Source of the DNA: a virus
Lineage: Duplodnaviria > Heunggongvirae > Uroviricota > Caudoviricetes
IMG/VR virus record: IMGVR_UViG_3300014539_000123
DNA: 18,127 bases
Strand: one strand, 5' to 3'
The position numbers and the translations under genes are program-made. Under the pieces are notes generated by a model, which was not told the origin of the DNA, searched no databases, and was given only the letters and a program-made list of their open reading frames with translations. Of the stretch, positions 1,423 to 18,127 are shown piece by piece (positions within the stretch are counted from its first letter, which is position 1; each line of letters begins with the position of its first letter).

Positions 1423-2446
<1,024 letters not shown>

Positions 2447-2450
<4 letters not shown>

Positions 2451-2758
2451 AGATATTTATGATGAGGACGCTCGTGCTTATTGGCAGGATTTTCAATCTT
2501 AAAGGAGTACTGATGCTGCAGATAAGACTCAACTTTTTCTGACAATTTTTCTGCTACTTCCAGGAAGACTTGCCGGACGCTCCTTCTGGCTGCTGCCTCA
2601 TAAAACTCCAGCGCAGCTCCTTCAACACGGTCCATGGCGACATCCAGGTCAAAAATTTCACCGTCAAAGCGTTCTTTGTCCTGTAAGGCTACAGTTACCG
2701 TAACTTTATTCTCAAAATTACGGACTCCTTTCACAACCAGTTCATAGTCTTGAGTCAT
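2447..2758 (-). CDS. ydfR: YdfR-like protein of unknown function (103 aa) inside the lysis cassette
   Basis: ATG start at 2756-2758; 4-nt overlap with rrrQ. Sequence and length match my recollection of K-12 YdfR. Function unknown. Confidence 0.75.
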
Positions 2759-2762
2759 TGGA

Positions 2763-2978
2763 TTACTCTCCTCTCGCAGCCTTACGCCTGTCTTCTTTAA
2801 TCTTGAAATAAAGATTTGTCAGATACGTCAGCAGGCCAAAAACCAGGCTACCCAGCACACCGATTGCAGCCCACTGTGACGGAGTTACTTTATCGAGTAA
2901 CTGCAATGCCCAGAAACCAGCATTACCCGCCGATGTGCCATAGGCAACACCTGTTGTTAACTTATCCATTGATTTCAT
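2763..2978 (-). CDS. essQ: phage-21-type pinholin with dual-start motif (71 aa; MKSMDKL...)
   Basis: ORF track 2763..3053 is a longer upstream extension. ATGs at 2976-2978 and 2967-2969 give the Met-Lys-x-Met dual-start arrangement of holin/antiholin pairs. Two hydrophobic segments and a charged C-terminus ([13 protein letters not shown]). SD gtgagg upstream. Confidence 0.8.
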
Positions 2979-3197
2979 ATCCTCACCCCGATGTACACGG
3001 ATGGTGCAATATGTTTGAAAAGATCGGAGTCTACGGGGTAGTTTTGACAGCACACGTTGTTCTCAACGGCGCTAAAAAAACATACACATTAAAAATGTGG
3101 GTAATTATTTTGAAAGAAAGTCATATATAAAATAATAATACGAGAAATGTTTTCATATTTAGTGTACTGTATACGGCCATTTATACAGGAAAAGCCT

Positions 3198-3368
3198 ATG
3201 TCAGAACGTAAAAACTCAAAATCACGCCGTAATTATCTCGTTAAATGTTCCTGCCCAAACTGCACCCAAGAGTCAGAACACAGTTTTTCAAGAGTACAAA
3301 AAGGTGCCCTTTTGATCTGCCCTCATTGCAACAAAGTATTCCAGACAAATCTTAAAGCTGTAGCCTGA
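3198..3368 (+). CDS. ynfU: small zinc-ribbon protein, 56 aa (C-x-C-P-x-C ... C-P-H-C), YnfU-like
   Basis: ORF track 3147..3368; internal ATG at 3198 preceded by agga (8-nt spacing) gives MSERKNSKSRRNYLVKCSCPNCTQESEHSFSRVQKGALLICPHCNKVFQTNLKAVA. Two Cys pairs suggest a Zn ribbon. Symbol from recall of a 56-aa Qin zinc-binding protein, not verified. Confidence 0.5.
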   Translation: MSERKNSKSRRNYLVKCSCPNCTQESEHSFSRVQKGALLICPHCNKVFQTNLKAVA

Positions 3369-3420
3369 TTGATTTTATTAGTAACAAGTATTTTTTATAT
3401 TTTAATAATATATTTAAAGC

Positions 3421-3450
3421 AGATAATAAAAAACCCGCCTGAGCGGGTTT
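3421..3450 (-). terminator. intrinsic terminator (hairpin aaacccgc-ctga-gcgggttt; U-tract on the minus strand)
   Basis: 8-bp perfect stem, 4-nt loop. A-run 3426-3433 on the plus strand gives a T-run immediately 3' of the hairpin on the minus strand. May work weakly in the plus direction for ynfU. Confidence 0.6.
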
Positions 3451-3731
3451 GAGATTGTGGTGCTTTTTGTGGGAGTCATCCACTTACGCACTTTGTTTTG
3501 CCATGCCAGCAGTTAGCTTCTGCTGTAAAACTATTCATGCAGCAAACCTGCACTTCACCACAATGGTTAGCATACTTTTCCTGATTAAGATTTTGCCAAA
3601 TATGCTAGCCATTGTTTCATGTATTGGACCTCCTTACTTTTTATTAAAGAGATCCAATATTCACTACTCTGTCCGTATCTCTACTCAGGCATCAGCCTTC
3701 TTCGTTATCGTATACAGACGAGCGATGAATT

Positions 3732-3947
3732 TTAATCAGTAATGATGACATTTGCTGCTGCAGGACCTTTAGCACCACTCTCTATAGAGAAGGTAACCTT
3801 TTGACCTTCAAATAAGGTTCGATAATTATCATTCTGAATCGCAGAAAAATGCACAAACACATCTTTACTACCATCAACAGGAGAAATAAAGCCGAAACCT
3901 TTATCAGCGTTAAACCATTTTACTAAACCAGTCATTTTATTTGACAT
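3732..3947 (-). CDS. cspB: cold shock protein CspB (CspA family, 71 aa)
   Basis: [45 protein letters not shown]... is a CspA-family sequence matching CspB as recalled. SD aagga upstream. Confidence 0.9.
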
Positions 3948-4247
3948 TCTACATTCCTTAACTTGAGCCTTTCGGCATAAATGGTTTGCATAACAGAAAC
4001 GACTTCGTACTTAATTGGAGAGACTCAAAGAAGGAATAAGTGAATAACACCTGAAATGAGAACTGCTTTAGTAAACTACTTCGTATATCGTCTGTTCTTC
4101 AAACCGACGCAATCATTAACGCATAGTTGAACATATGAAGCAATGTTTATTTTAGACATCCAGCCATCTTCAACCCCATCAAAAAACTATAGCTTTCTTC
4201 AGGAACGTGTGTATAGTGCGCCAAGTTATCAGTATTAAGGAATTTTT

Positions 4248-4460
4248 TTGTCCCGTAAAATGACAGGAATTGTCAAAACCTTTGACGGCAAAAGCGGCAA
4301 GGGTCTTATCACCCCATCCGATGGTCGTATCGATGTCCAGCTTCATGTTTCAGCGCTCAATCTCCGCGATGCAGAAGAAATTACCACCGGATTACGCGTG
4401 GAATTTTGCCGGATAAATGTTCTGCGTGGCCCTTCAGCTGCCAATGTTTACCTTTCATGA
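4248..4460 (+). CDS. cspF: cold shock protein homolog CspF (70 aa), probable TTG start
   Basis: [34 protein letters not shown]... Codon 4248-4250 is TTG with SD aagga 6 nt upstream. The first ATG (4260) would drop the MSRK residues that align with MSNK of CspB/CspI. Confidence 0.85.
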
Positions 4461-4514
4461 GCTATATTAAAGCTTTAATTTCAGGCCCCATCGGATCACA
4501 CATGGAGAGTTTTT

Positions 4515-4604
4515 ATGAATAACCCCGTCTGTCTTGATGACTGGTTGATTGGCTTTAAAAGCTTATGCTGTACTTTGGCCGTAATAGCTCTGCTAATAAT
4601 ATAA
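4515..4604 (+). CDS. candidate small hydrophobic protein, 29 aa ([29 protein letters not shown])
   Basis: Hand-translated; not in the ORF track because of size. SD ggagag sits 5 nt before ATG 4515; stop TAA at 4602-4604. C-terminal half is strongly hydrophobic and could span a membrane. No homolog recognised. Confidence 0.3.
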
Positions 4605-4752
4605 TAAGCAGACTCATTGTGTTTAGGGACATTGTACTGGAAGAAAACATTTTAAACATCAGGCAAATAACCAAGTCACCAGCTAAATAATAAGTTAACA
4701 GACATGAGTCCCGGGATGAGATTCAACATTACCATTGCCCCATTTAAAGCAC

Positions 4753-4786
4753 AAAACCCGCTCATCAGCGGGTTTTCTACTTTTTC
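4753..4786. terminator. bidirectional intrinsic terminator (aaaa-cccgc-tcatca-gcggg-tttt), candidate late terminator downstream of the Q gene
   Basis: GC stem flanked by A4 on one side and a T-rich tract (ttttctactttttctt) on the other. Could terminate cspF on the plus strand and the short late leader transcript on the minus strand. Confidence 0.6.
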
Positions 4787-4821
4787 TTAACGTCGGGTAT
4801 ACAAAGCCCATCGTTGAAAAA

Positions 4822-4850
4822 ATTTTATCCATATTTTTTGAAAAATGCAA
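4822..4850 (-). promoter_or_regulatory. candidate late promoter just downstream of quuQ (minus strand -35 TTGCAT, 17-nt spacer, -10 TAAAAT)
   Basis: Minus-strand reading: ttgcat-N17-taaaat. Located 30-60 nt after the quuQ stop and about 50 nt before the terminator hairpin, the arrangement expected for a lambdoid late promoter and qut region. Confidence 0.4.
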
Positions 4851-4881
4851 ACATCATGTCGCCATCTTCAGCAAAAATCAT

Positions 4882-5634
4882 TTATCTCGTCACCTTCCTC
4901 AATTGCGCTTCCGCGTATGCTTCTTCCTGCCAGCACTTTGTTACCAGTTTACCAATGACGTCCGCATACCCCTTATACCACTGATAATCGGTCAGGTCTG
5001 GTACCAGCTTCTGGACATGACGTCGTGCCAGCGTGGTCGGTAAACGACTAAACCGGTTTCCATTACAACGCCCACAAATCTTATATACCGGTACGCCATG
5101 AAACCGGGTTCTTTTTTCATCCAGAACAATCCCTTTACCCTTACACCCTCTGCACGCTGTGCTGGCTTCGCCCTTACCATGGCAATGCTGACATAGTTCC
5201 TTCACCCATTCTTCCTTGATTACAGATTCCCCGCGTCTGTAGTGTTTCACCACTTCGCGCAATACATTATAAAATCCCGTACCTGAACAATGCTCACAGC
5301 GAGCCTTACTTGCCGCAGACCTGGAGTAATCAGCAAAGGCAAAACTCACGAGGTAAGGAATAATCTGTAACCGGATTTCTTCACTCAATTTGTTCAATGT
5401 CGGGTTATCCAGTGCCATCGCGTAATTTAGCAGGCCTTCAATCGCAAACTGAGGGTCCTGAACACCAACTTTTGCCAGAAATAAGGCCAACCCAAGTGGT
5501 GCTTTCGACTGCACCATCCCCTGCGCTGCCATTACATCCGTAATTGTTAAACAACCGGTGCCTGTCGCTGGAGCGTCATCGCTCAATTTTGGAGATTTTG
5601 GGGAGTAATATTTTGGTAAGGCTTCAAGGTTCAT
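4882..5634 (-). CDS. quuQ: late-gene antiterminator Q homolog (250 aa from ATG at 5634)
   Basis: ORF track 4882..5664; ATG at 5632-5634 is preceded by SD ggag at 7 nt. Cys-rich motifs (CEHCSGTG, CQHCHGKGEASTACRGCKGKG, CGRCNG) suggest zinc binding. Position upstream of the late promoter and lysis genes matches Q. Confidence 0.8.
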   Translation of the reverse strand: MNLEALPKYYSPKSPKLSDDAPATGTGCLTITDVMAAQGMVQSKAPLGLALFLAKVGVQDPQFAIEGLLNYAMALDNPTLNKLSEEIRLQIIPYLVSFAFADYSRSAASKARCEHCSGTGFYNVLREVVKHYRRGESVIKEEWVKELCQHCHGKGEASTACRGCKGKGIVLDEKRTRFHGVPVYKICGRCNGNRFSRLPTTLARRHVQKLVPDLTDYQWYKGYADVIGKLVTKCWQEEAYAEAQLRKVTR

Positions 5635-9539: not shown

Positions 9540-9789
9540 TTAAGAATCTACCCTATGAATGGATATGCACTCAACCGAATCGATCTTGGTTTCAATCTTT
9601 TTTATCGGGATCAGGCTTCTTTTTAGGTAACTTCGGGGGCTTAACTTGCTGATGACTTTGCGTTCGGCGCGTAAGCCAGGGATGGTCAGCTTTAGGTTTA
9701 ACATAGTATTTTGAGCGTAAATCAATACGGGCATTATCCACTCGTTCATGGACACTCTTTTCATCATCCAGTGGTAAGGTCCGGATCAA
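9540..9789 (-). pseudogene. possible degraded gene remnant (two overlapping ORFs in different frames; integrase-fragment assignment is positional only)
   Basis: ORFs 9540..9767 and 9592..9789 overlap in different frames with no SD and no recognisable motifs. K-12 annotates an integrase pseudogene here (ydfW/intK), but I cannot see integrase motifs myself. Confidence 0.2.
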
Positions 9790-10060
9790 CCACAGCAGGT
9801 TTCTTCACCTTTGCCCTCGAGAGTTTTTTGCGGGCGTTTTGCCAGTCCTTACGCGCCTGTTCAGAGGGGAATAACCCGTAGCCGGAGTTGTATACATCGC
9901 CACTGGCTACCAGCTCTCTGGCAAGAACGCTCATCAGATATCTAGTCGCACCTGTTTTAGCTTCCAGTTGCCGTAACGTCTCACGGCCGCTCTGGCGCAC
10001 GAGTTCCACCACCTGCCATTTAATTTTTTCCCGCTCTTCTTGTGTAAAAACTTTTGCCAC
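9764..10060 (-). CDS. hypothetical protein, 98 aa (possible ydfX equivalent), GTG start
   Basis: GTG at 10058-10060 preceded by strong SD agggggac. Basic C-terminus. Immediately downstream of the replication initiator gene, the position of the helicase loader in lambda, but far too short for one. Confidence 0.5.
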   Translation of the reverse strand: MAKVFTQEEREKIKWQVVELVRQSGRETLRQLEAKTGATRYLMSVLARELVASGDVYNSGYGLFPSEQARKDWQNARKKLSRAKVKKPAVVDPDLTTG

Positions 10061-10100
10061 AAGTCCCCCTTAAAATTACCTCATGACCTGAAATCAACAC

Positions 10101-11066
10101 TTATCCTCTGAAACCAGGCGGAATTTCTGTATCCGGTTCAGAAATATGATTAACACAACGCTGTACAGGTGAACGTCCCAGGCGGATGACCAGTTCGTCC
10201 CATTTTTCGCGGAGCTTTGACGGGCTCATGATGTTTTTTACCCAGAATGGATCTCGCTGAACCCGACCAAACATTTCGCAAATTTGTCTGTGGCTTCTGC
10301 CATCCAGCATCCGCATTGTGCGCACGTCATTGGCCCAGGCAGTCCAGTTAGGCTCTTTTGGTCGCATGATCTCGCCATCATCACTGGCTGCCTGTTCGTA
10401 GAGACCCACGATCCGCCCCCAGATCCACTGCGCACACGCCAAATCCTCCCTGCTACCCCACTGGCGTTTTTTCGCACTAAACACAACCGCGTCGGAGTTC
10501 CGGGTTAAAAAATCCTGTTCAGTCGTCTGCGGGTCCGGTTGCGAAGCTTCCGGACGAAAAGTGTTTTTATTCTCTGTAGTAATCTCTGTTGTATTCTCTG
10601 TAAGATCATCAGGCCATTTTGACCCGATGACATTGGGTCGTTTTGAACCAATGGAGCGTTTCATTTTGACCTCTTCCATCGTGTCATTTTGACCTGATGG
10701 AGCGGCGCATTTTGAACCGATGGATTCGCTCAATTTGCCACCATCTAAAAGCTCGCTCCCATAGTTGATCGTGTAGAAATTGGTCATATCGCGCTTTGAT
10801 TTATTGAGCTTTTCACAACGCAAAAGCCCCAGCGTTTTCAGACTTGCAAACGCGCGCTTTAACGTTGACTCTGACCAGAATGGGAACTGTTCCAGCCATT
10901 GTTCCGTTGTGTTATAAATCCAGCGAACACCATCACATTCCATGCCGGAGTTGGTATCTCTCAACCAGTAGTGCAGTTGTTGCAAAACAATGGCTTCGTT
11001 TAAGCCAATTTTCATTGCCAGCTGCGTGTTTATAACCAGTGGGCGTTCAGCAAAAAGAAGGCTCAT
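10101..11066 (-). CDS. phage replication initiation protein, lambda O-like organisation (321 aa from ATG 11066; ORF extends to TTG 11120)
   Basis: The coding sequence contains five iterons in its central linker, which translate into the repeated peptide SIGSK; lambda O also carries its ori inside the gene. Start codon ambiguous; 5' end is near the assembly gap. Confidence 0.55.
   Translation of the reverse strand: MSLLFAERPLVINTQLAMKIGLNEAIVLQQLHYWLRDTNSGMECDGVRWIYNTTEQWLEQFPFWSESTLKRAFASLKTLGLLRCEKLNKSKRDMTNFYTINYGSELLDGGKLSESIGSKCAAPSGQNDTMEEVKMKRSIGSKRPNVIGSKWPDDLTENTTEITTENKNTFRPEASQPDPQTTEQDFLTRNSDAVVFSAKKRQWGSREDLACAQWIWGRIVGLYEQAASDDGEIMRPKEPNWTAWANDVRTMRMLDGRSHRQICEMFGRVQRDPFWVKNIMSPSKLREKWDELVIRLGRSPVQRCVNHISEPDTEIPPGFRG
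10560..10725. repeat. ori-like iteron array: five about 16-bp repeats (consensus cATTTTGAmCnnATGG, period 22-25 bp) flanked by an AT-rich tract with TCTCTGT repeats
   Basis: Iterons at 10615-10629, 10640-10654, 10662-10677, 10685-10700 and 10708-10723. AT-rich region 10560-10612 contains three copies of tctctgt. All lie inside the O-like gene. Confidence 0.6.
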
Positions 11067-11268
11067 AATTCCATCCAGCTTTTTGTTGGTATTGCTGTCG
11101 ATACGCAAGTTTGAAAGCAATTGCTTTTTCTATAAGTTCGTCAGTTTCACGATCCACTACGGCAGGATCAGCAAAAAGCAGTCCGGACTCCACCACATCG
11201 CCATATTCTTTGTTTAACCCGGCGATCATGCACGTGATGCTTTTTCCGTCAGTAATTTCACGATACAA
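11047..11268 (-). CDS. ORF of 73 aa abutting the assembly gap; possibly the C-terminal part of a longer protein
   Basis: Begins with TTG right at the gap edge with no in-frame stop before the N-run, so the true N-terminus may lie in unsequenced DNA. Overlaps the 5' end of the O-like ORF. Confidence 0.25.
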   Translation of the reverse strand: MYREITDGKSITCMIAGLNKEYGDVVESGLLFADPAVVDRETDELIEKAIAFKLAYRQQYQQKAGWNYEPSFC

Positions 11269-11278
11269 CCTGAAATCA

Positions 11279-11575
11279 TTAATCNNNNNNNNNNATAGCC
11301 TCCATAATTGCAGGCACTAGCGCCGTGAACTTTTCACGCTTATCCCTGGTGTCGATAGCCTTCCAGCGTTCAAATATCTTCACTCGATTAACGCCAAGCG
11401 CTCGCTGATCAATCGCGCCACCTTCATATGTGACACGCTGAACATCGATGTTCGGGCGCTCTTTCAAAGCCCAGAATGCTTCAGTGATTAATATCGTCGC
11501 CTGCTCCTGTGTCATTCCTGGTCGACATATCCAGGCATCCAGAGCCTCACGAGCCTGTTCAGGAGTGATTTTCAT
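11279..11575 (-). CDS. hypothetical protein in the cII position downstream of dicC (98 aa as read; C-terminus crosses the gap and is unreliable)
   Basis: ATG at 11573-11575 overlaps the dicC 3' end by 17 nt. The last codons include the N-run, so the real stop is unknown. Confidence 0.4.
   Translation of the reverse strand: MKITPEQAREALDAWICRPGMTQEQATILITEAFWALKERPNIDVQRVTYEGGAIDQRALGVNRVKIFERWKAIDTRDKREKFTALVPAIMEAXXXXD
11285..11294. other. assembly gap (run of 10 N)
   Basis: Ten consecutive n characters; true length unknown. Interrupts the coding region between dicC and the replication gene. Confidence 0.99.
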
Positions 11576-14016: not shown

Positions 14017-16488
14017 ATGAGTAAAGTCTTTATTTGCGCCGCTATTCCTGACGAACTGGCAACAAGGGAAGAAGGCGCTGTGGCTGTAGCCACAGCCATT
14101 GAAGCTGGCGACGAACGCCGTGCTCGAGCAAAATTTCACTGGCAATTCCTGGAACATTATCCGGCTGCTCAGGACTGCGCTTATAAATTTATTGTCTGCG
14201 AGGATAAACCTGGCATACCCCGCCCTGCCCTCGATTCATGGGATGCTGAATATATGCAGGAAAACCGCTGGGATGAGGAGTCTGCTTCTTTTGTCCCGGT
14301 TGAGACTGAATCCGATCCGATGAACGTCACTTTTGACAAGCTGGCCCCTGAAGTACAGAACGCTGTCATGGTTAAGTTCGACACATGTGAAAACATCACC
14401 GTTGATATGGTTATTAGCGCACAGGAATTGTTGCAGGAAGACATGGCAACATTCGACGGACATATCGTTGAAGCGTTGATGAAAATGCCAGAAGTTAACG
14501 CCATGTATCCGGAGCTTAAGTTGCACGCCATTGGGTGGGTTAAGCATAAATGTATTCCTGGTGCTAAATGGCCCGAAATTCAGGCAGAGATGCGCATCTG
14601 GAAAAAACGTCGCGAAGGTGAACGCAAGGAAACCGGAAAATACACGTCTGTTGTTGATCTCGCCCGCGCCAGAGCCAATCAACAGTACACTGAAAATTCA
14701 ACAGGAAAAATCAGCCCGGTCATTGCTGCCATTCATCGCGAATACAAGCAGACATGGAAAACACTGGATGACGAACTGGCCTACGCTCTCTGGCCTAGTG
14801 ATGTGGATGCCGGAAACATTGACGGCAGCATCCATCGCTGGGCAAAAAAAGAAGTTATCGACAACGACCGCGAAGACTGGAAGCGTATCTCGGCATCAAT
14901 GCGCAAACAGCCTGATGCCCTTCGCTACGACCGCCAAACTATTTTTGGCCTTGTCCGTGAGCGTCCGATCGACATTCACAAAGATCCCGTAGCACTGAAC
15001 AAATATATCTGCGAATACCTGACGACAAAGGGCGTGTTTGAGAATGAAGAAACAGACCTGGGCACTGTTGATGTTCTCCAGTCATCAGAAACACAAACTG
15101 ATGCAGTGGAAACTGAGGTATCTGATATCCCAAAAAATGAAACCGCGCCGGAAGCTGAACCATCTGTAGAGCGTGAGGGGCCGTTCTATTTCCTCTTCGC
15201 AGATAAGGACGGAGAAAAATACGGTCGCGCAAACAAACTCTCTGGTCTGGATAAGGCACTGGCTGCTGGCGCCACTGAAATCACAAAAGAAGAATATTTT
15301 GCCCGAAAAAATGGCACATACACGGGCTTACCGCAAAATGTAGATACCGCTGAAGATTCAGAACAACCAGAGCCGATAAAAGTTACCGCTGACGAAGTAA
15401 ACAAAATTATGCAGGCAGCCAATATCAGCCAGCCTGACGCCGATAAGTTGCTTGCTGCATCACGTGGTGAATTTGTTGAAGGGATTAGTGACCCGAATGA
15501 TCCGAAATGGGTTAAGGGGCTCCAGACCCGCGATTCTGTGAACCAGAACCAGCATGAATCGGAACGGAACTACCAAAAAGCGGAACAAAACAGTCCAAAT
15601 GCGTTACAAAACGAGCCAGAAACGAAACAGCCTGAACCAGTAGCGCAACAGGAAGTGGAAAAAGTCTGCACCGCCTGCGGTCAGACCGGCGGCGGCAACT
15701 GCCCTGATTGTGGCGCGGTGATGGGCGACGCAACATACCAAGAAACATTCGATGAAGAGTATCAGGTTGAAGTTCAGGAAGATGATCCGGAGGAAATGGA
15801 AGGCGCTGAACATCCACACAAGGAGAACACTGGCGGCAATCAGCATCACAATAGCGATAATGAAACTGGCGAGACGGCAGATCACCCAATTAAGGTGAAC
15901 GGTCATCACGAAATCACATCCACCAGCAGGACGTGTGACCATCTAATGATCGACCTTGAAACCATGGGAAAAAATCCTGATGCCCCGATCATCTCAATAG
16001 GTGCAATATTTTTCGATCCGCAAACCGGAGATATGGGACCGGAATTTAGTAAGACTATCGATCTGGAAACTGCTGGCGGAGTCATTGATCGGGACACCAT
16101 TAAATGGTGGCTTAAGCAATCACGCGAAGCGCAATCTGCCATTATGACCGATGAAATCCCGTTAGATGATGCACTGTTACAATTGCGAGAATTTATCGAC
16201 GAAAACTCCGGTGAATTTTTTGTTCAGGTTTGGGGAAATGGAGCCAACTTCGACAACACGATTTTGCGCCGTTCATACGAACGGCAGGGGATCCCCTGCC
16301 CGTGGCGTTACTACAACGATCGCGATGTACGCACAATCGTTGAGCTGGGGAAAGCCATAGACTTCGATGCCAGAACGGCTATTCCATTCGAAGGTGAGCG
16401 CCATAATGCACTTGATGACGCCCGTTACCAGGCAAAATACGTTTCAGTTATCTGGCAAAAACTGATCCCGAGTCAGGCTGATTCTTAA
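14017..16488 (+). CDS. ydfE: large ydfE-class nuclease (823 aa from ATG 14017): N-terminal domain of unknown function, RecE-like central linker with C-x2-C...C-x2-C zinc ribbon, C-terminal DEDDh 3'-5' exonuclease domain
   Basis: ATG at 14017 with SD gagg 9 nt upstream; the ORF track extends to TTG 13981. C-terminal motifs MIDLET (Exo I, D-x-E), GNGANFDNTIL (Exo II), HNALDDARYQAKY (Exo III). Central ADKLLAASRGEFVEGISDPNDPKW...CTACGQTGGGNCPDCGAV resembles the middle of Rac RecE as I recall it. Symbol from position after ydfD. Confidence 0.75.
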   Translation: MSKVFICAAIPDELATREEGAVAVATAIEAGDERRARAKFHWQFLEHYPAAQDCAYKFIVCEDKPGIPRPALDSWDAEYMQENRWDEESASFVPVETESDPMNVTFDKLAPEVQNAVMVKFDTCENITVDMVISAQELLQEDMATFDGHIVEALMKMPEVNAMYPELKLHAIGWVKHKCIPGAKWPEIQAEMRIWKKRREGERKETGKYTSVVDLARARANQQYTENSTGKISPVIAAIHREYKQTWKTLDDELAYALWPSDVDAGNIDGSIHRWAKKEVIDNDREDWKRISASMRKQPDALRYDRQTIFGLVRERPIDIHKDPVALNKYICEYLTTKGVFENEETDLGTVDVLQSSETQTDAVETEVSDIPKNETAPEAEPSVEREGPFYFLFADKDGEKYGRANKLSGLDKALAAGATEITKEEYFARKNGTYTGLPQNVDTAEDSEQPEPIKVTADEVNKIMQAANISQPDADKLLAASRGEFVEGISDPNDPKWVKGLQTRDSVNQNQHESERNYQKAEQNSPNALQNEPETKQPEPVAQQEVEKVCTACGQTGGGNCPDCGAVMGDATYQETFDEEYQVEVQEDDPEEMEGAEHPHKENTGGNQHHNSDNETGETADHPIKVNGHHEITSTSRTCDHLMIDLETMGKNPDAPIISIGAIFFDPQTGDMGPEFSKTIDLETAGGVIDRDTIKWWLKQSREAQSAIMTDEIPLDDALLQLREFIDENSGEFFVQVWGNGANFDNTILRRSYERQGIPCPWRYYNDRDVRTIVELGKAIDFDARTAIPFEGERHNALDDARYQAKYVSVIWQKLIPSQADS

Positions 16489-16560
16489 TGTTCAACTGTC
16501 GCCGGTTGTGACTGGTATTCTGCAACCGGCGCTCGTCTGATGTAAGAGATAAAGAAATCG

Positions 16561-16812
16561 ATGAGCGAAGTAATCATGATTGTCTCTCCCGGCAAATGGG
16601 TATCCGAAGAGCAGTTAATTGCGCTGAAAGGAATAAAAAAAGGTACGTTAAAAAAGGCCCGGGAAAAATCGTTTATGGAAGGAAGGGAATATAAGCATGT
16701 CGCTCATGACGGTATGCCATGGGATAACAGTCCATGCTTTTACAACCTGGAAGAAATTGATCGCTGGATTGAGCGCCAGGCATCAGCGAGACCAAGACGT
16801 CATCTTACTTGA
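16561..16812 (+). CDS. excisionase-like small protein (83 aa)
   Basis: Small basic protein immediately upstream of the integrase on the same strand. Assignment rests on size and position, not on recognised motifs. Confidence 0.5.
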   Translation: MSEVIMIVSPGKWVSEEQLIALKGIKKGTLKKAREKSFMEGREYKHVAHDGMPWDNSPCFYNLEEIDRWIERQASARPRRHLT

Positions 16813-16846
16813 CTAAAAGCCACACTAACTAATGAGAGAAGTTGAA

Positions 16847-18127
16847 ATGAAATATCCGACAGGCGTGGAAAACCATGGAGGGAAATTACGTATCTGGTTT
16901 GTTTATAAAGACGTAAGAGTCAGGGAAAATCTGGGGGTTCCTGACACAGCAAAAAACAGGCGCGTTGCAGGTGAACTACGCTCCTCTGTTTGTTACGCAA
17001 TAAAAACTGGTGTTTTCGACTATGCAAAACAGTTTCCCTCCTCACGCAATCTGGAAAAATTTGGTGAGGCCCGACAAGATTTAACCATAAAAGAACTGGC
17101 TGAAAAATTTCTGGCACTGAAAGAAACTGAAGTCGCCAAAACATCACTCAACACATACCGTGCCGTCATCAAAAATATCCTGAGCATAATCGGTGAAAAA
17201 AATCTTGCCTCATCGATTAATAAAGAAAAATTACTGGAGGTTCGTAAAGAGTTACTGACTGGATACCAGATCCCCAAAAGTAACTATATTGTTACACAAC
17301 CAGGGAGATCGGCTGTAACTGTAAATAATTACATGACAAATCTTAACGCCGTGTTCCAGTTTGGTGTTGATAACGGTTACCTGGCAGATAATCCGTTTAA
17401 GGGGATCTCGCCATTAAAGGAATCAAGAACCATTCCGGATCCTCTTTCGCGGGAAGAATTTATCCGTCTTATCGATGCGTGCAGAAATCAGCAAGCAAAA
17501 AATTTATGGTGTGTTTCTGTTTATACTGGAGTTCGCCCTGGTGAGCTGTGTGCACTTGGATGGGAGGACATAGATCTGAAAAATGGAACAATGATGATCA
17601 GGAGAAATTTAGCAAAAGACCGTTTCACGGTACCAAAAACACAGGCGGGAACCAATCGGGTCATTCATCTTATTAAGCCAGCAATCGACGCTCTCCGGAG
17701 TCAGATGACATTAACGAGACTGAGCAAAGAGCATATCATTGATGTTCACCTCAGAGAGTATGGCAGAACAGAAAAACAAAAATGCACCTTTGTTTTTCAA
17801 CCTGAAGTGTCAGCGAGAGTAAAAAATTATGGTGACCATTTTACCGTTGACTCAATAAGGCAGATGTGGGACGCAGCGATAAAACGTGCCGGACTCCGCC
17901 ATCGAAAATCATATCAGTCGAGACATACTTATGCCTGCTGGTCGCTGACAGCTGGTGCTAACCCGGCATTTATAGCAAACCAGATGGGCCATGCAGATGC
18001 GCAAATGGTATTTCAGGTATACGGAAAATGGATGTCTGAAAACAATAATGCACAGGTAGCTTTGTTAAATACACAGTTAAGCGAGTATGCCCCAACCATG
18101 CCCCATAACGAAGCAATGAAAAATTAA
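16847..18127 (+). CDS. tyrosine site-specific integrase (426 aa from ATG 16847; ORF extends to 16832)
   Basis: C-terminal catalytic region has TGVRPGEL, SRHTYACW and QVYGKW matching the Arg, His-x-x-Arg and Tyr positions of lambda-family integrases. N-terminus MKYPTGVENHGGKLRIWF resembles the arm-binding domain of prophage integrases. Stop codon is the last 3 nt of the window. Confidence 0.85.
   Translation: MKYPTGVENHGGKLRIWFVYKDVRVRENLGVPDTAKNRRVAGELRSSVCYAIKTGVFDYAKQFPSSRNLEKFGEARQDLTIKELAEKFLALKETEVAKTSLNTYRAVIKNILSIIGEKNLASSINKEKLLEVRKELLTGYQIPKSNYIVTQPGRSAVTVNNYMTNLNAVFQFGVDNGYLADNPFKGISPLKESRTIPDPLSREEFIRLIDACRNQQAKNLWCVSVYTGVRPGELCALGWEDIDLKNGTMMIRRNLAKDRFTVPKTQAGTNRVIHLIKPAIDALRSQMTLTRLSKEHIIDVHLREYGRTEKQKCTFVFQPEVSARVKNYGDHFTVDSIRQMWDAAIKRAGLRHRKSYQSRHTYACWSLTAGANPAFIANQMGHADAQMVFQVYGKWMSENNNAQVALLNTQLSEYAPTMPHNEAMKN

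What the first reader, a model, noticed from the sequence alone, without database searches (positions are those of the whole stretch)
4745..4881. Late promoter and terminator unit just downstream of quuQ, separated from the lysis genes by a cold-shock gene insertion
On the minus strand a sigma-70-like promoter (TTGCAT-N17-TAAAAT) lies 30-60 nt after the Q stop, with a strong intrinsic terminator about 50 nt further on. That is the arrangement of lambda PR', qut and tR'. Here about 1.7 kb containing cspF (opposite strand), cspB, a second terminator (3421-3450) and ynfU (opposite strand) lies between this unit and the holin gene. Q-modified polymerase would have to read antisense through cspF and ynfU and through two terminators to reach the lysis cassette. 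This makes a clean test case for terminator-resistant late transcription across a moron island.
Basis: partly seen in the sequence, partly recalled or inferred. Interest (0 to 1): 0.5.

Follow-up and report, generated by a model that had tools for sequence, protein, structure and literature searches.

The report
Qin prophage late promoter-pause-terminator cassette
Just after the Q antiterminator gene of the E. coli Qin prophage sits a lambda-type late promoter with a built-in pause signal and a terminator; published maps show it makes a 67-nt RNA, so it is a real but ordinary example of a well-understood phage switch.

Summary
On the minus strand, TTGCAT (4850-4845), a 17-nt spacer and TAAAAT (4827-4822) follow the quuQ stop. 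A hairpin with a T run follows at 4776-4746.

Six nt after the -10 lies AACGAT-GGG (4815-4807). This is identical in sequence and position to the sigma70-dependent pause element of lambda PR'. QuuQ belongs to the lambda Q family (PF03589), not the phage 21 or 82 families.

This segment is 100% identical to MG1655, so published K-12 maps apply. They already contain the proposed tests:
- a dRNA-seq start at window 4815;
- sigma70-associated pauses at +14 to +18, the fourth strongest lambda-like pause in the genome;
- a Term-seq 3' end at 4749 in three conditions.

These define a 67-nt leader RNA.

The same architecture follows Q homologues of 40-100% identity in 16 of 17 genome loci and in four of five phage records. 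Cargo between terminator and holin varies: csp genes, a DNA methylase, or tRNAs plus stx2. Records deposited as complete phage genomes carry the csp island too.

Dependence of read-through on QuuQ remains untested. Verdict: a new member of a known kind, of low to moderate interest.

The parts
4882..5634 (-). quuQ (ydfT), a lambda-family Q antiterminator gene of 250 aa
   Evidence: Pfam PF03589 at 3.6e-54. 33% identity to lambda Q, E = 2e-40, with a 48-aa insertion in the zinc-ribbon arm. Matches PDB lambda Q chains 7ubm, 4mo1 and 7ubj. Annotated in MG1655 as b1559.
4845..4850 (-). -35 hexamer TTGCAT of the late promoter (the PR' equivalent)
   Evidence: Sequence. TTG is invariant in 11 aligned relatives. 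4/6 identical to lambda TTGACT.
4828..4844 (-). 17-nt spacer TTTTCAAAAAATATGGA, the inferred Q-binding element
   Evidence: Lambda Q binds between the -35 and -10 (PMC6266700, read). 11/17 identical to the lambda spacer. TTCAAAA and TG are invariant among relatives with 63-100% identical Q. The spacer differs where Q is only 40% identical. Binding was not tested.
4822..4827 (-). -10 hexamer TAAAAT
   Evidence: Sequence. TA..AT is invariant in relatives.
4815..4815 (-). Transcription start (+1), the first A of AACGAT
   Evidence: The Thomason 2015 dRNA-seq start is listed as 1640446 (-) in NC_000913.2 coordinates in the supplement of Sun 2021. The conversion offset of +1976 was set. That gives 1642422 in version 3, which is window 4815. 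This is the same position as +1 of lambda PR' (plus the known 194-nt length of lambda 6S RNA).
4807..4815 (-). Sigma70-dependent pause element: the -10-like AACGAT at +1 to +6, then GGG
   Evidence: Identical to lambda PR' in sequence and in its 6-nt distance from the -10. AA[C/T]GAT-[G/A]GG is kept in 16 of 17 genome loci.
4798..4802 (-). Promoter-proximal pause sites at +14 and +16 to +18
   Evidence: Sigma70-affinity RNET-seq in greAB-deleted cells. Pause scores are 6881 (17 nt from the start), 5783 (16 nt), 1653 (15 nt) and 1875 (13 nt). This is the fourth strongest entry of the lambda-PR'-like 'G1d' class.
4746..4776 (-). Intrinsic terminator (the tR' equivalent): hairpin at 4776-4753, then GTGCTTT
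   Evidence: dG -14.8 kcal/mol. A Term-seq 3' end lies at 1642356, which is window 4749, in three growth conditions. Homology with SfV-type phages ends at 4746-4753.
4749..4815 (-). 67-nt leader RNA, the counterpart of lambda 6S RNA
   Evidence: The 5' end comes from dRNA-seq and the 3' end from Term-seq. Fold energy is -29.7 kcal/mol, z = -6.6.
2979..4745 (.). 1.77-kb cargo island: ynfS(+), cspF(+), cspB(-) with its thermosensor 5' UTR, a bidirectional hairpin at 3431-3450, and ynfU(+)
   Evidence: Annotation, Pfam and Rfam RF01766 at 3716-4108. The cargo is variable in relatives.
1423..2978 (-). Lysis cassette essQ-ydfR-rrrQ-rzpQ/rzoQ, the presumed target of late transcription
   Evidence: Pfam holin PF04971, lysozyme PF00959 and DUF2514. 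Annotation.

Best explanation
This is the late regulatory cassette of a lambda-type Q antitermination system.

Shown (from sequence and published maps):
- RNA polymerase with sigma70 starts at window 4815 on the minus strand.
- Sigma70 then re-binds the -10-like AACGAT at +1 to +6 and holds the complex at about +16 to +18.
- The transcript ends at the hairpin and U run at 4749. This gives a 67-nt leader RNA that is made constitutively in K-12.

Inferred by homology with lambda:
- When QuuQ is made, it binds the conserved spacer between the -35 and -10.
- It then loads onto the paused polymerase and makes it resistant to terminators.
- Transcription would then run through the terminator and the 1.77-kb csp island. 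It would be sense to cspB and antisense to cspF and ynfU, and would pass the hairpin at 3450-3431 into the lysis genes.

Q gene, promoter, pause element and terminator travel together as one mosaic module. The cargo behind the module is exchangeable.
For: - Geometry and pause element are identical to lambda PR', with 32/44 identity.
- QuuQ is in the lambda Q family.
- Window 4600-5000 is 100% identical to MG1655, so K-12 data apply.
- There is a start at 4815 and sigma70-bound pauses at +14 to +18. These are the fourth strongest in the class that the authors equate with the lambda PR' pause.
- There is a 3' end at 4749 in three conditions.
- The pattern is expected 0 times by chance.
- The same -35/-10/6-nt/AA[C/T]GAT-[G/A]GG arrangement, with a hairpin and T run whose stem lies between +21 and +68, follows Q homologues of 40-100% identity. 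This holds in 16 of 17 genome loci from nine genera and in four of five phage records. The terminator stems differ in sequence.
- Homology between phages breaks right after the terminator (4746-4753) or right after the pause site (about 4799).
- Phage records deposited as complete genomes carry 1.2-3.5 kb of cargo between this unit and the lysis or stx genes.
Against: - No experiment shows that QuuQ binds here or causes read-through.
- The proposed Q-binding spacer rests on position and conservation only.
- Qin is a cryptic prophage, and quuQ may never be expressed in K-12.
- A promoter closer to essQ cannot be excluded. A weak promoter-like match at 3131-3104 exists, and I could not view the full start-site table.
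- A 3' end at window 4581 in one condition suggests that some transcripts pass the terminator even without induction.
- The variant in PhiR63_1 has a poor -10 (AAAGAG) although its Q is 89% identical at the DNA level.
Confidence: 0.85

Rival explanations
1. The unit is a functional relic in this host. The promoter fires and every transcript ends at the terminator. QuuQ is never made, or no longer works, so no late transcription ever crosses the island in K-12-like strains.
For: Qin is annotated as a cryptic prophage. Several minus-strand 3' ends lie upstream of ydfU and quuQ, at 1644572 and 1645082, so little transcription may reach quuQ. A relative with a truncated Q has a mutated pause element, AAAGAT (L021), which shows that such cassettes do decay.
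Against: quuQ is full length and 100% identical to the Q of PhiR42_1, a record deposited as a complete phage genome. The promoter, pause element and terminator are all intact and active. The lysis genes are intact ORFs.
Confidence: 0.1
2. The promoter and terminator form a stand-alone small-RNA gene. Its product acts in trans, as StxS of Shiga-toxin phages does. In this host, its use by Q is secondary or lost.
For: The 67-nt RNA is made constitutively and gives a strong 3' end in three conditions. It folds stably. Leaders from antitermination-controlled phage promoters can be regulatory RNAs (PMC7547250). The +1 to +28 region is well conserved even where Q is only 40% identical.
Against: No target or Hfq-binding data were found. 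The 3' end is UUUUGUGC, not the long U run typical of Hfq-dependent RNAs. The match to Rfam isrK is far below threshold, at 16.6 versus 50 bits. Conservation of +1 to +28 can be explained by exchange of the segment between phages. For example, L024 and SfV share an identical terminator. No compensatory base changes were seen.
Confidence: 0.05
3. The hairpin at 4753-4776 is mainly the terminator of the plus-strand cspF-ynfS transcript. It lies after the promoter only by chance.
For: The consensus scan lists it on the + strand, with tail CTACTTTTTC. It lies downstream of cspF and ynfS.
Against: Term-seq lists only a minus-strand 3' end there. Relatives that lack cspF altogether keep a hairpin and T run downstream of the start (stem between +21 and +68). 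These include SfV, Ayreon, the Stx2k phage, L014 and loci from other genera.
Confidence: 0.03

Closest known systems
Phage lambda PR' - qut - tR' (6S RNA) cassette
   Same: Q is of the same family. The -35/17-nt/-10 geometry matches. The 6-nt gap to an identical AACGAT-GGG pause element matches, and the start is on the first A of AACGAT. The pause falls at about +16 to +18, and a terminated leader RNA is made without Q. The CATGAT upstream of the -35 is also shared.
   Different: The leader is 67 nt against 194 nt in lambda. The spacer (Q-binding region) is 11/17 identical, and sequence beyond +9 is unrelated. QuuQ has a 48-aa insertion with two extra CxxC motifs in the DNA-contacting arm. Between terminator and holin lie 1.77 kb, including two opposite-strand genes. 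Lambda has about 0.4 kb there, with orf-64.
SfV, Ayreon, mEp460 and phiSTEC1575-Stx2k phages (and, at similar identity, Stx2c-converting phages)
   Same: The Q gene and cassette are about 90% identical at the DNA level. In the three aligned (SfV, Ayreon, Stx2k) the -35, spacer and pause element are the same as in Qin; the terminator sits at the same place and is annotated in the SfV and Ayreon records.
   Different: The cargo differs. SfV and Ayreon carry orf47 plus a DNA methylase. The Stx2k phage carries regulators, three tRNAs and stx2. All of this cargo is co-oriented with late transcription.
Shiga-toxin phage PR' - StxS - tR' - stx - lysis arrangement
   Same: Cargo genes lie between the Q-controlled late promoter and the lysis cassette, and are reached only by antiterminated transcription. 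A short terminated leader accumulates in lysogens (PMC7547250 and PMC6266700).
   Different: The StxS leader is 258 nt and is processed to 74 nt. It binds Hfq and has known targets. None of this is known for the Qin leader.
Phage 21 and phage 82 qut regions
   Same: [quoted passage not shown]
   Different: Their Q proteins belong to the unrelated families PF06530 and PF06323. QuuQ matches only PF03589.
Salmonella Gifsy-1 IsrK RNA (Rfam RF01394)
   Same: It is a short RNA made from an antitermination-controlled prophage promoter (PMC7547250).
   Different: The Rfam match is 16.6 bits against a threshold of 50, so the Qin leader is not a member of that family.

Membership tests
Lambda-type Q-dependent late regulatory cassette | A Q gene of the lambda family (PF03589) lies directly upstream | tested here: met
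   PF03589 at 3.6e-54. BLASTP to lambda Q gives 2e-40. PDB lambda Q chains are matched.
Lambda-type Q-dependent late regulatory cassette | An active sigma70 promoter lies just after the Q gene | tested here: met
   TTGCAT-17-TAAAAT. A published dRNA-seq start lies at window 4815.
Lambda-type Q-dependent late regulatory cassette | A -10-like pause element lies in the first transcribed bases, with a sigma70-dependent pause near +16/+17 | tested here: met
   AACGAT-GGG at +1 to +9 is identical to lambda. Sigma70-affinity RNET-seq pauses lie at +14 to +18.
Lambda-type Q-dependent late regulatory cassette | A Q-binding element lies between the -35 and -10 and is bound by Q | not testable with these tools
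   Only indirect evidence is available. The spacer is conserved with the Q type and is 11/17 identical to lambda's.
Lambda-type Q-dependent late regulatory cassette | An intrinsic terminator shortly downstream stops transcription when Q is absent | tested here: met
   Hairpin with a U run. A Term-seq 3' end lies at window 4749 in three conditions.
Lambda-type Q-dependent late regulatory cassette | Q-dependent read-through of that terminator and of later ones | not testable with these tools
   No data were found. This needs reporter, in vitro or RNA-seq experiments with quuQ supplied.
Lambda-type Q-dependent late regulatory cassette | Lysis and late genes lie downstream on the same strand | tested here: met
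   essQ, rrrQ and rzpQ lie at 2978-1423 on the minus strand, after 1.77 kb of cargo.
Phage 21-type or 82-type Q systems | A Q protein of PF06530 (Q21) or PF06323 (Q82) | tested here: not met
   The Pfam scan of QuuQ returns only PF03589 and a DnaJ-type zinc-finger match.
Rfam isrK (RF01394) or any other Rfam family | A score at or above the family's gathering threshold | tested here: not met
   There is no hit at gathering thresholds. isrK scores 16.6 bits against 50, and other weak hits are attenuator leaders.
PR'-derived regulatory small RNA (StxS-like) | Chaperone binding and trans targets | not testable with these tools
   The supplement of the RIL-seq paper is not held. No literature on this RNA was found.

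The most novel reading that the evidence does not exclude
The 67-nt leader is made constitutively from a cryptic prophage in about a third of complete E. coli genomes. It might be a trans-acting regulatory RNA of the host, as StxS is in Shiga-toxin lysogens, and not merely a by-product. A related possibility is that Q-driven transcription across the island is itself regulatory. It would co-induce cspB and silence cspF and ynfU by antisense transcription during induction.
Probability: 0.1. Interest if true: 0.5.

Novelty: new member of a known kind. Interest (0 to 1): 0.25.

Why it matters
It explains three signals in published E. coli K-12 maps: a start site, one of the strongest sigma70-bound pauses in the genome, and an RNA 3' end listed as 'orphan' (the two papers I could check do not link these signals to the prophage). 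Together they form one lambda-type late-gene switch belonging to the Qin prophage.

It also shows that a 'hypothetical protein' ORF annotated there is spurious, because it starts in the -35 hexamer.

It offers a natural chromosomal site in the standard laboratory strain for studying lambda-family Q loading. This Q has an enlarged zinc arm. The site also allows study of terminator-resistant transcription across opposite-strand genes.

The mechanism itself is textbook. Cargo between Q and the lysis genes is already well known from Shiga-toxin phages.

Tried and rejected
- Rfam at gathering thresholds gave nothing for the leader. Permissive searches gave only sub-threshold hits to amino-acid operon leaders and isrK, which I judged to be chance.
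- Literature searches for quuQ or ydfT, and for Qin plus late promoter, found no description of this element.
- The Thomason 2015 start-site paper is not held. The start was taken second-hand from the Sun 2021 supplement.
- The Cappable-seq start table was truncated before this region. The RIL-seq supplement is not held.
- A coordinate offset of 1975 between genome versions 2 and 3 was rejected in favour of 1976. With 1976, all four start sites in the region fall on purines.
- The 51-aa ORF at 4695-4850 was rejected as a gene. Its TTG start is the -35 hexamer, which lies upstream of the mapped start.
- The hairpin as a cspF terminator was rejected as its main role (see the rival explanations).
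- The alignment-based fold did not recover the terminator, because the stems are out of register in the alignment. Per-sequence folds were used instead.
- I could not confirm from the literature that PhiR42_1 is a plaque-forming phage. It is cited only as a record deposited as a complete phage genome.

Full report
**Where this is.** The window is a Qin prophage region of an E. coli strain close to K-12. The first 8.4 kb differ from MG1655 at 11 bases and one indel. Window 4600-5000 is 100% identical to MG1655, with genome coordinate = window + 1637607. The window is not MG1655 itself, because it has extra DNA at 9777-11295 and 14784-16967.

**The observation.**
- The quuQ/ydfT gene ends at 4882.
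- On the minus strand, TTGCAT (4850-4845), 17 nt and TAAAAT (4827-4822) follow.
- The hairpin AAAACCCGCT-gatg-AGCGGGTTTT lies at 4776-4753 and is followed by GTGCTTT.
- cspF(+), cspB(-), a hairpin with a T run at 3450-3431 and ynfU(+) lie between this unit and the holin start at 2978. That distance is 1.77 kb.

Six nt after the -10 comes AACGAT-GGG (4815-4807).
- Lambda PR' reads TTGACT-17-TAAATT-tgactc-AACGAT-GGG.
- The Qin sequence reads TTGCAT-17-TAAAAT-tttttc-AACGAT-GGG.
- The two match at 32 of 44 positions without gaps. The best other 44-mer in the window matches 25.
- The composite pattern is expected 0 times in shuffles.
- In lambda, AACGAT is the -10-like element that sigma70 re-binds to pause the polymerase at +16/+17, where Q loads. 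The cassette is defined in 10.1101/2022.03.25.485794.

**The protein.** QuuQ matches only Pfam PF03589, the lambda Q family.
- It is 33% identical to lambda Q over its full length, E = 2e-40.
- It matches the solved lambda Q chains.
- It carries a 48-residue insertion with two further CxxC motifs in the zinc-ribbon arm.

1. *Start site.* The supplement of Sun et al. 2021 (PMC7876045) uses NC_000913.2 coordinates. It lists the nearest dRNA-seq start, taken from Thomason 2015, as 1640446 on the minus strand.
2. *Pauses.* The same supplement lists sigma70-affinity nascent-RNA pauses at 1640429, 1640430, 1640431 and 1640433. Their scores are 6881, 5783, 1653 and 1875. The first is the twelfth row of the whole list. 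It is the fourth of the 'G1d' class, which the authors define by a downstream -10-like region and equate with the lambda PR' pause.
3. *Coordinate conversion.* I fixed the version 2 to version 3 offset at 1976. With it, all four listed starts in the region fall on purines. With 1975, three fall on pyrimidines. The start is therefore window 4815, the first A of AACGAT, as in lambda. The pauses are at +14 and +16 to +18.
4. *3' end.* Adams et al. 2021 (PMC7815308) uses NC_000913.3 coordinates. It lists an 'orphan' RNA 3' end at 1642356 (-), which is window 4749, in all three conditions, with the terminator sequence printed beside it.

The leader RNA is therefore 67 nt. The main text of the Sun paper has no occurrence of 'prophage', 'Qin', 'ydfT' or 'lambdoid', and the Adams table classes the 3' end only as 'orphan'. 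Searches for quuQ or ydfT found no description of the element.

**Comparative evidence.** A scan of one genome per species found 17 loci with Q relatives.
- All but one rearranged locus (L019) show the same architecture. That is a -35, 16-17 nt, a -10, 6 nt and AA[C/T]GAT-[G/A]GG. A hairpin with a T run follows, and its stem falls between +21 and +68.
- This includes loci where Q is only 63-71% identical (Mangrovibacter, Kosakonia, Phytobacter, Atlantibacter, Scandinavium, Buttiauxella). It also includes loci at 40-42% identity (another E. coli, Entomohabitans, E. albertii).
- Terminator stems differ in sequence: CCCGCT/AGCGGG, CCTCGC/GCGGGG and CCCGCC/GCGGG. Position and form are kept.
- The spacer is nearly constant where Q is at least 63% identical, and different where Q is 40% identical. 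This fits a Q-specific binding site but does not prove one.
- Among phage records, homology to Qin ends at window 4746-4753, right after the terminator. In three records it ends at about 4799, right after the pause site. The gene and its cassette therefore move as one module.
- One of those three, PhiR63_1, has a degenerate promoter with AAAGAG as the -10.

**The island.**
- The cargo behind the cassette varies. Some loci have the csp genes with cspF. Others have cspF truncated (L012) or absent (L014; Tritos has no annotated cspF and a shorter Q-cspB gap).
- SfV, Ayreon and several genome loci carry orf47 plus a DNA methylase. The Stx2k phage carries regulators, tRNAs and stx2.
- PhiR42_1 is 100% identical here, and Tritos is 97% identical. 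Both are deposited as complete phage genomes and carry the csp layout; 2H10 (91.5%) also matches beyond the terminator.
- The island is thus a normal cargo slot rather than a sign of decay. It is the same slot that holds stx in Shiga-toxin phages (PMC6266700 and PMC7547250).
- What is less usual here is that two cargo genes face the late transcript.
- On that path, the mapped minus-strand 3' ends are at 4749, at 4581 (one condition only) and at 3617-3619 (the cspB 3' UTR). The hairpin at 3450-3431 has a mapped end only on the + strand, where it ends ynfU.

**Mechanism.**
- *Shown:* the start, the sigma70-bound pause and the termination that yields a 67-nt RNA.
- *Inferred from homology with lambda:* QuuQ binds the spacer, loads at the pause and renders polymerase terminator-resistant. 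Polymerase then crosses the island into essQ-rrrQ-rzpQ.
- *Not shown:* any response to QuuQ, whether quuQ is expressed in K-12, and whether PR' is the only promoter for the lysis genes.

**Rivals considered.**
- A functional relic in this host is possible but not exclusive of the main explanation.
- A stand-alone small-RNA gene has no supporting data. The Rfam isrK match is far below threshold. A 5' hairpin at +1 to +27 is kept in 14 relatives but shows no compensatory changes.
- The hairpin as a cspF terminator is contradicted by relatives that lack cspF and by the strand of the mapped 3' end.

**Verdict.** The element is an ordinary lambda-family late cassette. It counts as a new, well-documented member of a known kind. 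Its main value is in explaining 'orphan' signals in K-12 data sets and in providing a convenient chromosomal test site.

Noticed in passing
window 5131-5274 (-), QuuQ residues 121-168: Relative to lambda Q, QuuQ has a 48-residue insertion with two extra CxxC motifs in the zinc-ribbon arm. This gives a DnaJ-like four-CxxC arrangement. In lambda, this arm contacts the Q-binding DNA and sigma region 4.
   Followed up: partly
window 3610-3731 (-): The cspB 3' UTR folds into two very stable hairpins (z = -7.6). The strongest RNA 3' end of the region, at 3617-3619, lies at their end without any U run. This suggests a processed, protected end rather than an intrinsic terminator.
   Followed up: partly
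window 4581 (-): Term-seq lists a 3' end 168 nt beyond the terminator in one of three conditions. Its score is similar to that of the terminator end, and only a weak hairpin lies there. This could reflect partial read-through of the terminator or an unmapped start.
   Followed up: partly
window 4695-4850 (-): A 51-aa ORF is annotated as 'hypothetical protein' in many RefSeq genomes and in PhiR42_1. It starts at the TTG of the -35 hexamer, upstream of the mapped transcription start, and runs through the terminator. It is almost certainly spurious.
   Followed up: yes
window 9777-11295 and 14784-16967: The window has extra DNA relative to MG1655 at these two places, so it comes from another Qin-bearing strain. 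PhiR42_1 has transposase genes annotated next to the first site.
   Followed up: no
L027 3195-3290 (MG1655 577194-577289, DLP12 prophage): The second-ranked sigma70 pause site of the published list has its start at 576452 in version 2 coordinates. It belongs to a promoter plus hairpin and T-run unit 168 nt upstream of essD. In DLP12, the nmpC cargo therefore lies between quuD and this unit. In Qin, the cargo lies after the unit.
   Followed up: partly
L013 (contig JAGZPX010000007.1): A contig binned as a Veillonella parvula metagenome-assembled genome carries a Qin-like region whose Q protein is 99% identical, with the same csp and lysis gene order. This is probably a binning contaminant from Escherichia.
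   Followed up: no
L021 3526-3700: In an E. coli strain where only residues 76-250 of Q are encoded, the pause element reads AAAGAT instead of AACGAT. This may be decay of the cassette together with its Q gene.
   Followed up: no
window 4789-4815 (-), leader +1 to +27: A predicted 5' hairpin (AACG/CGUU plus an inner helix) is maintained in 14 relatives, including those with only 40% identical Q. It shows one-sided changes only and no compensatory pairs.
   Followed up: partly
window 3178 (+): A published start site at 1638809 in version 2 coordinates, with a sigma70 pause 10 nt downstream, lies 20 nt upstream of the ynfU start codon. This small opposite-strand gene therefore has its own active promoter facing the late transcript.
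   Followed up: no
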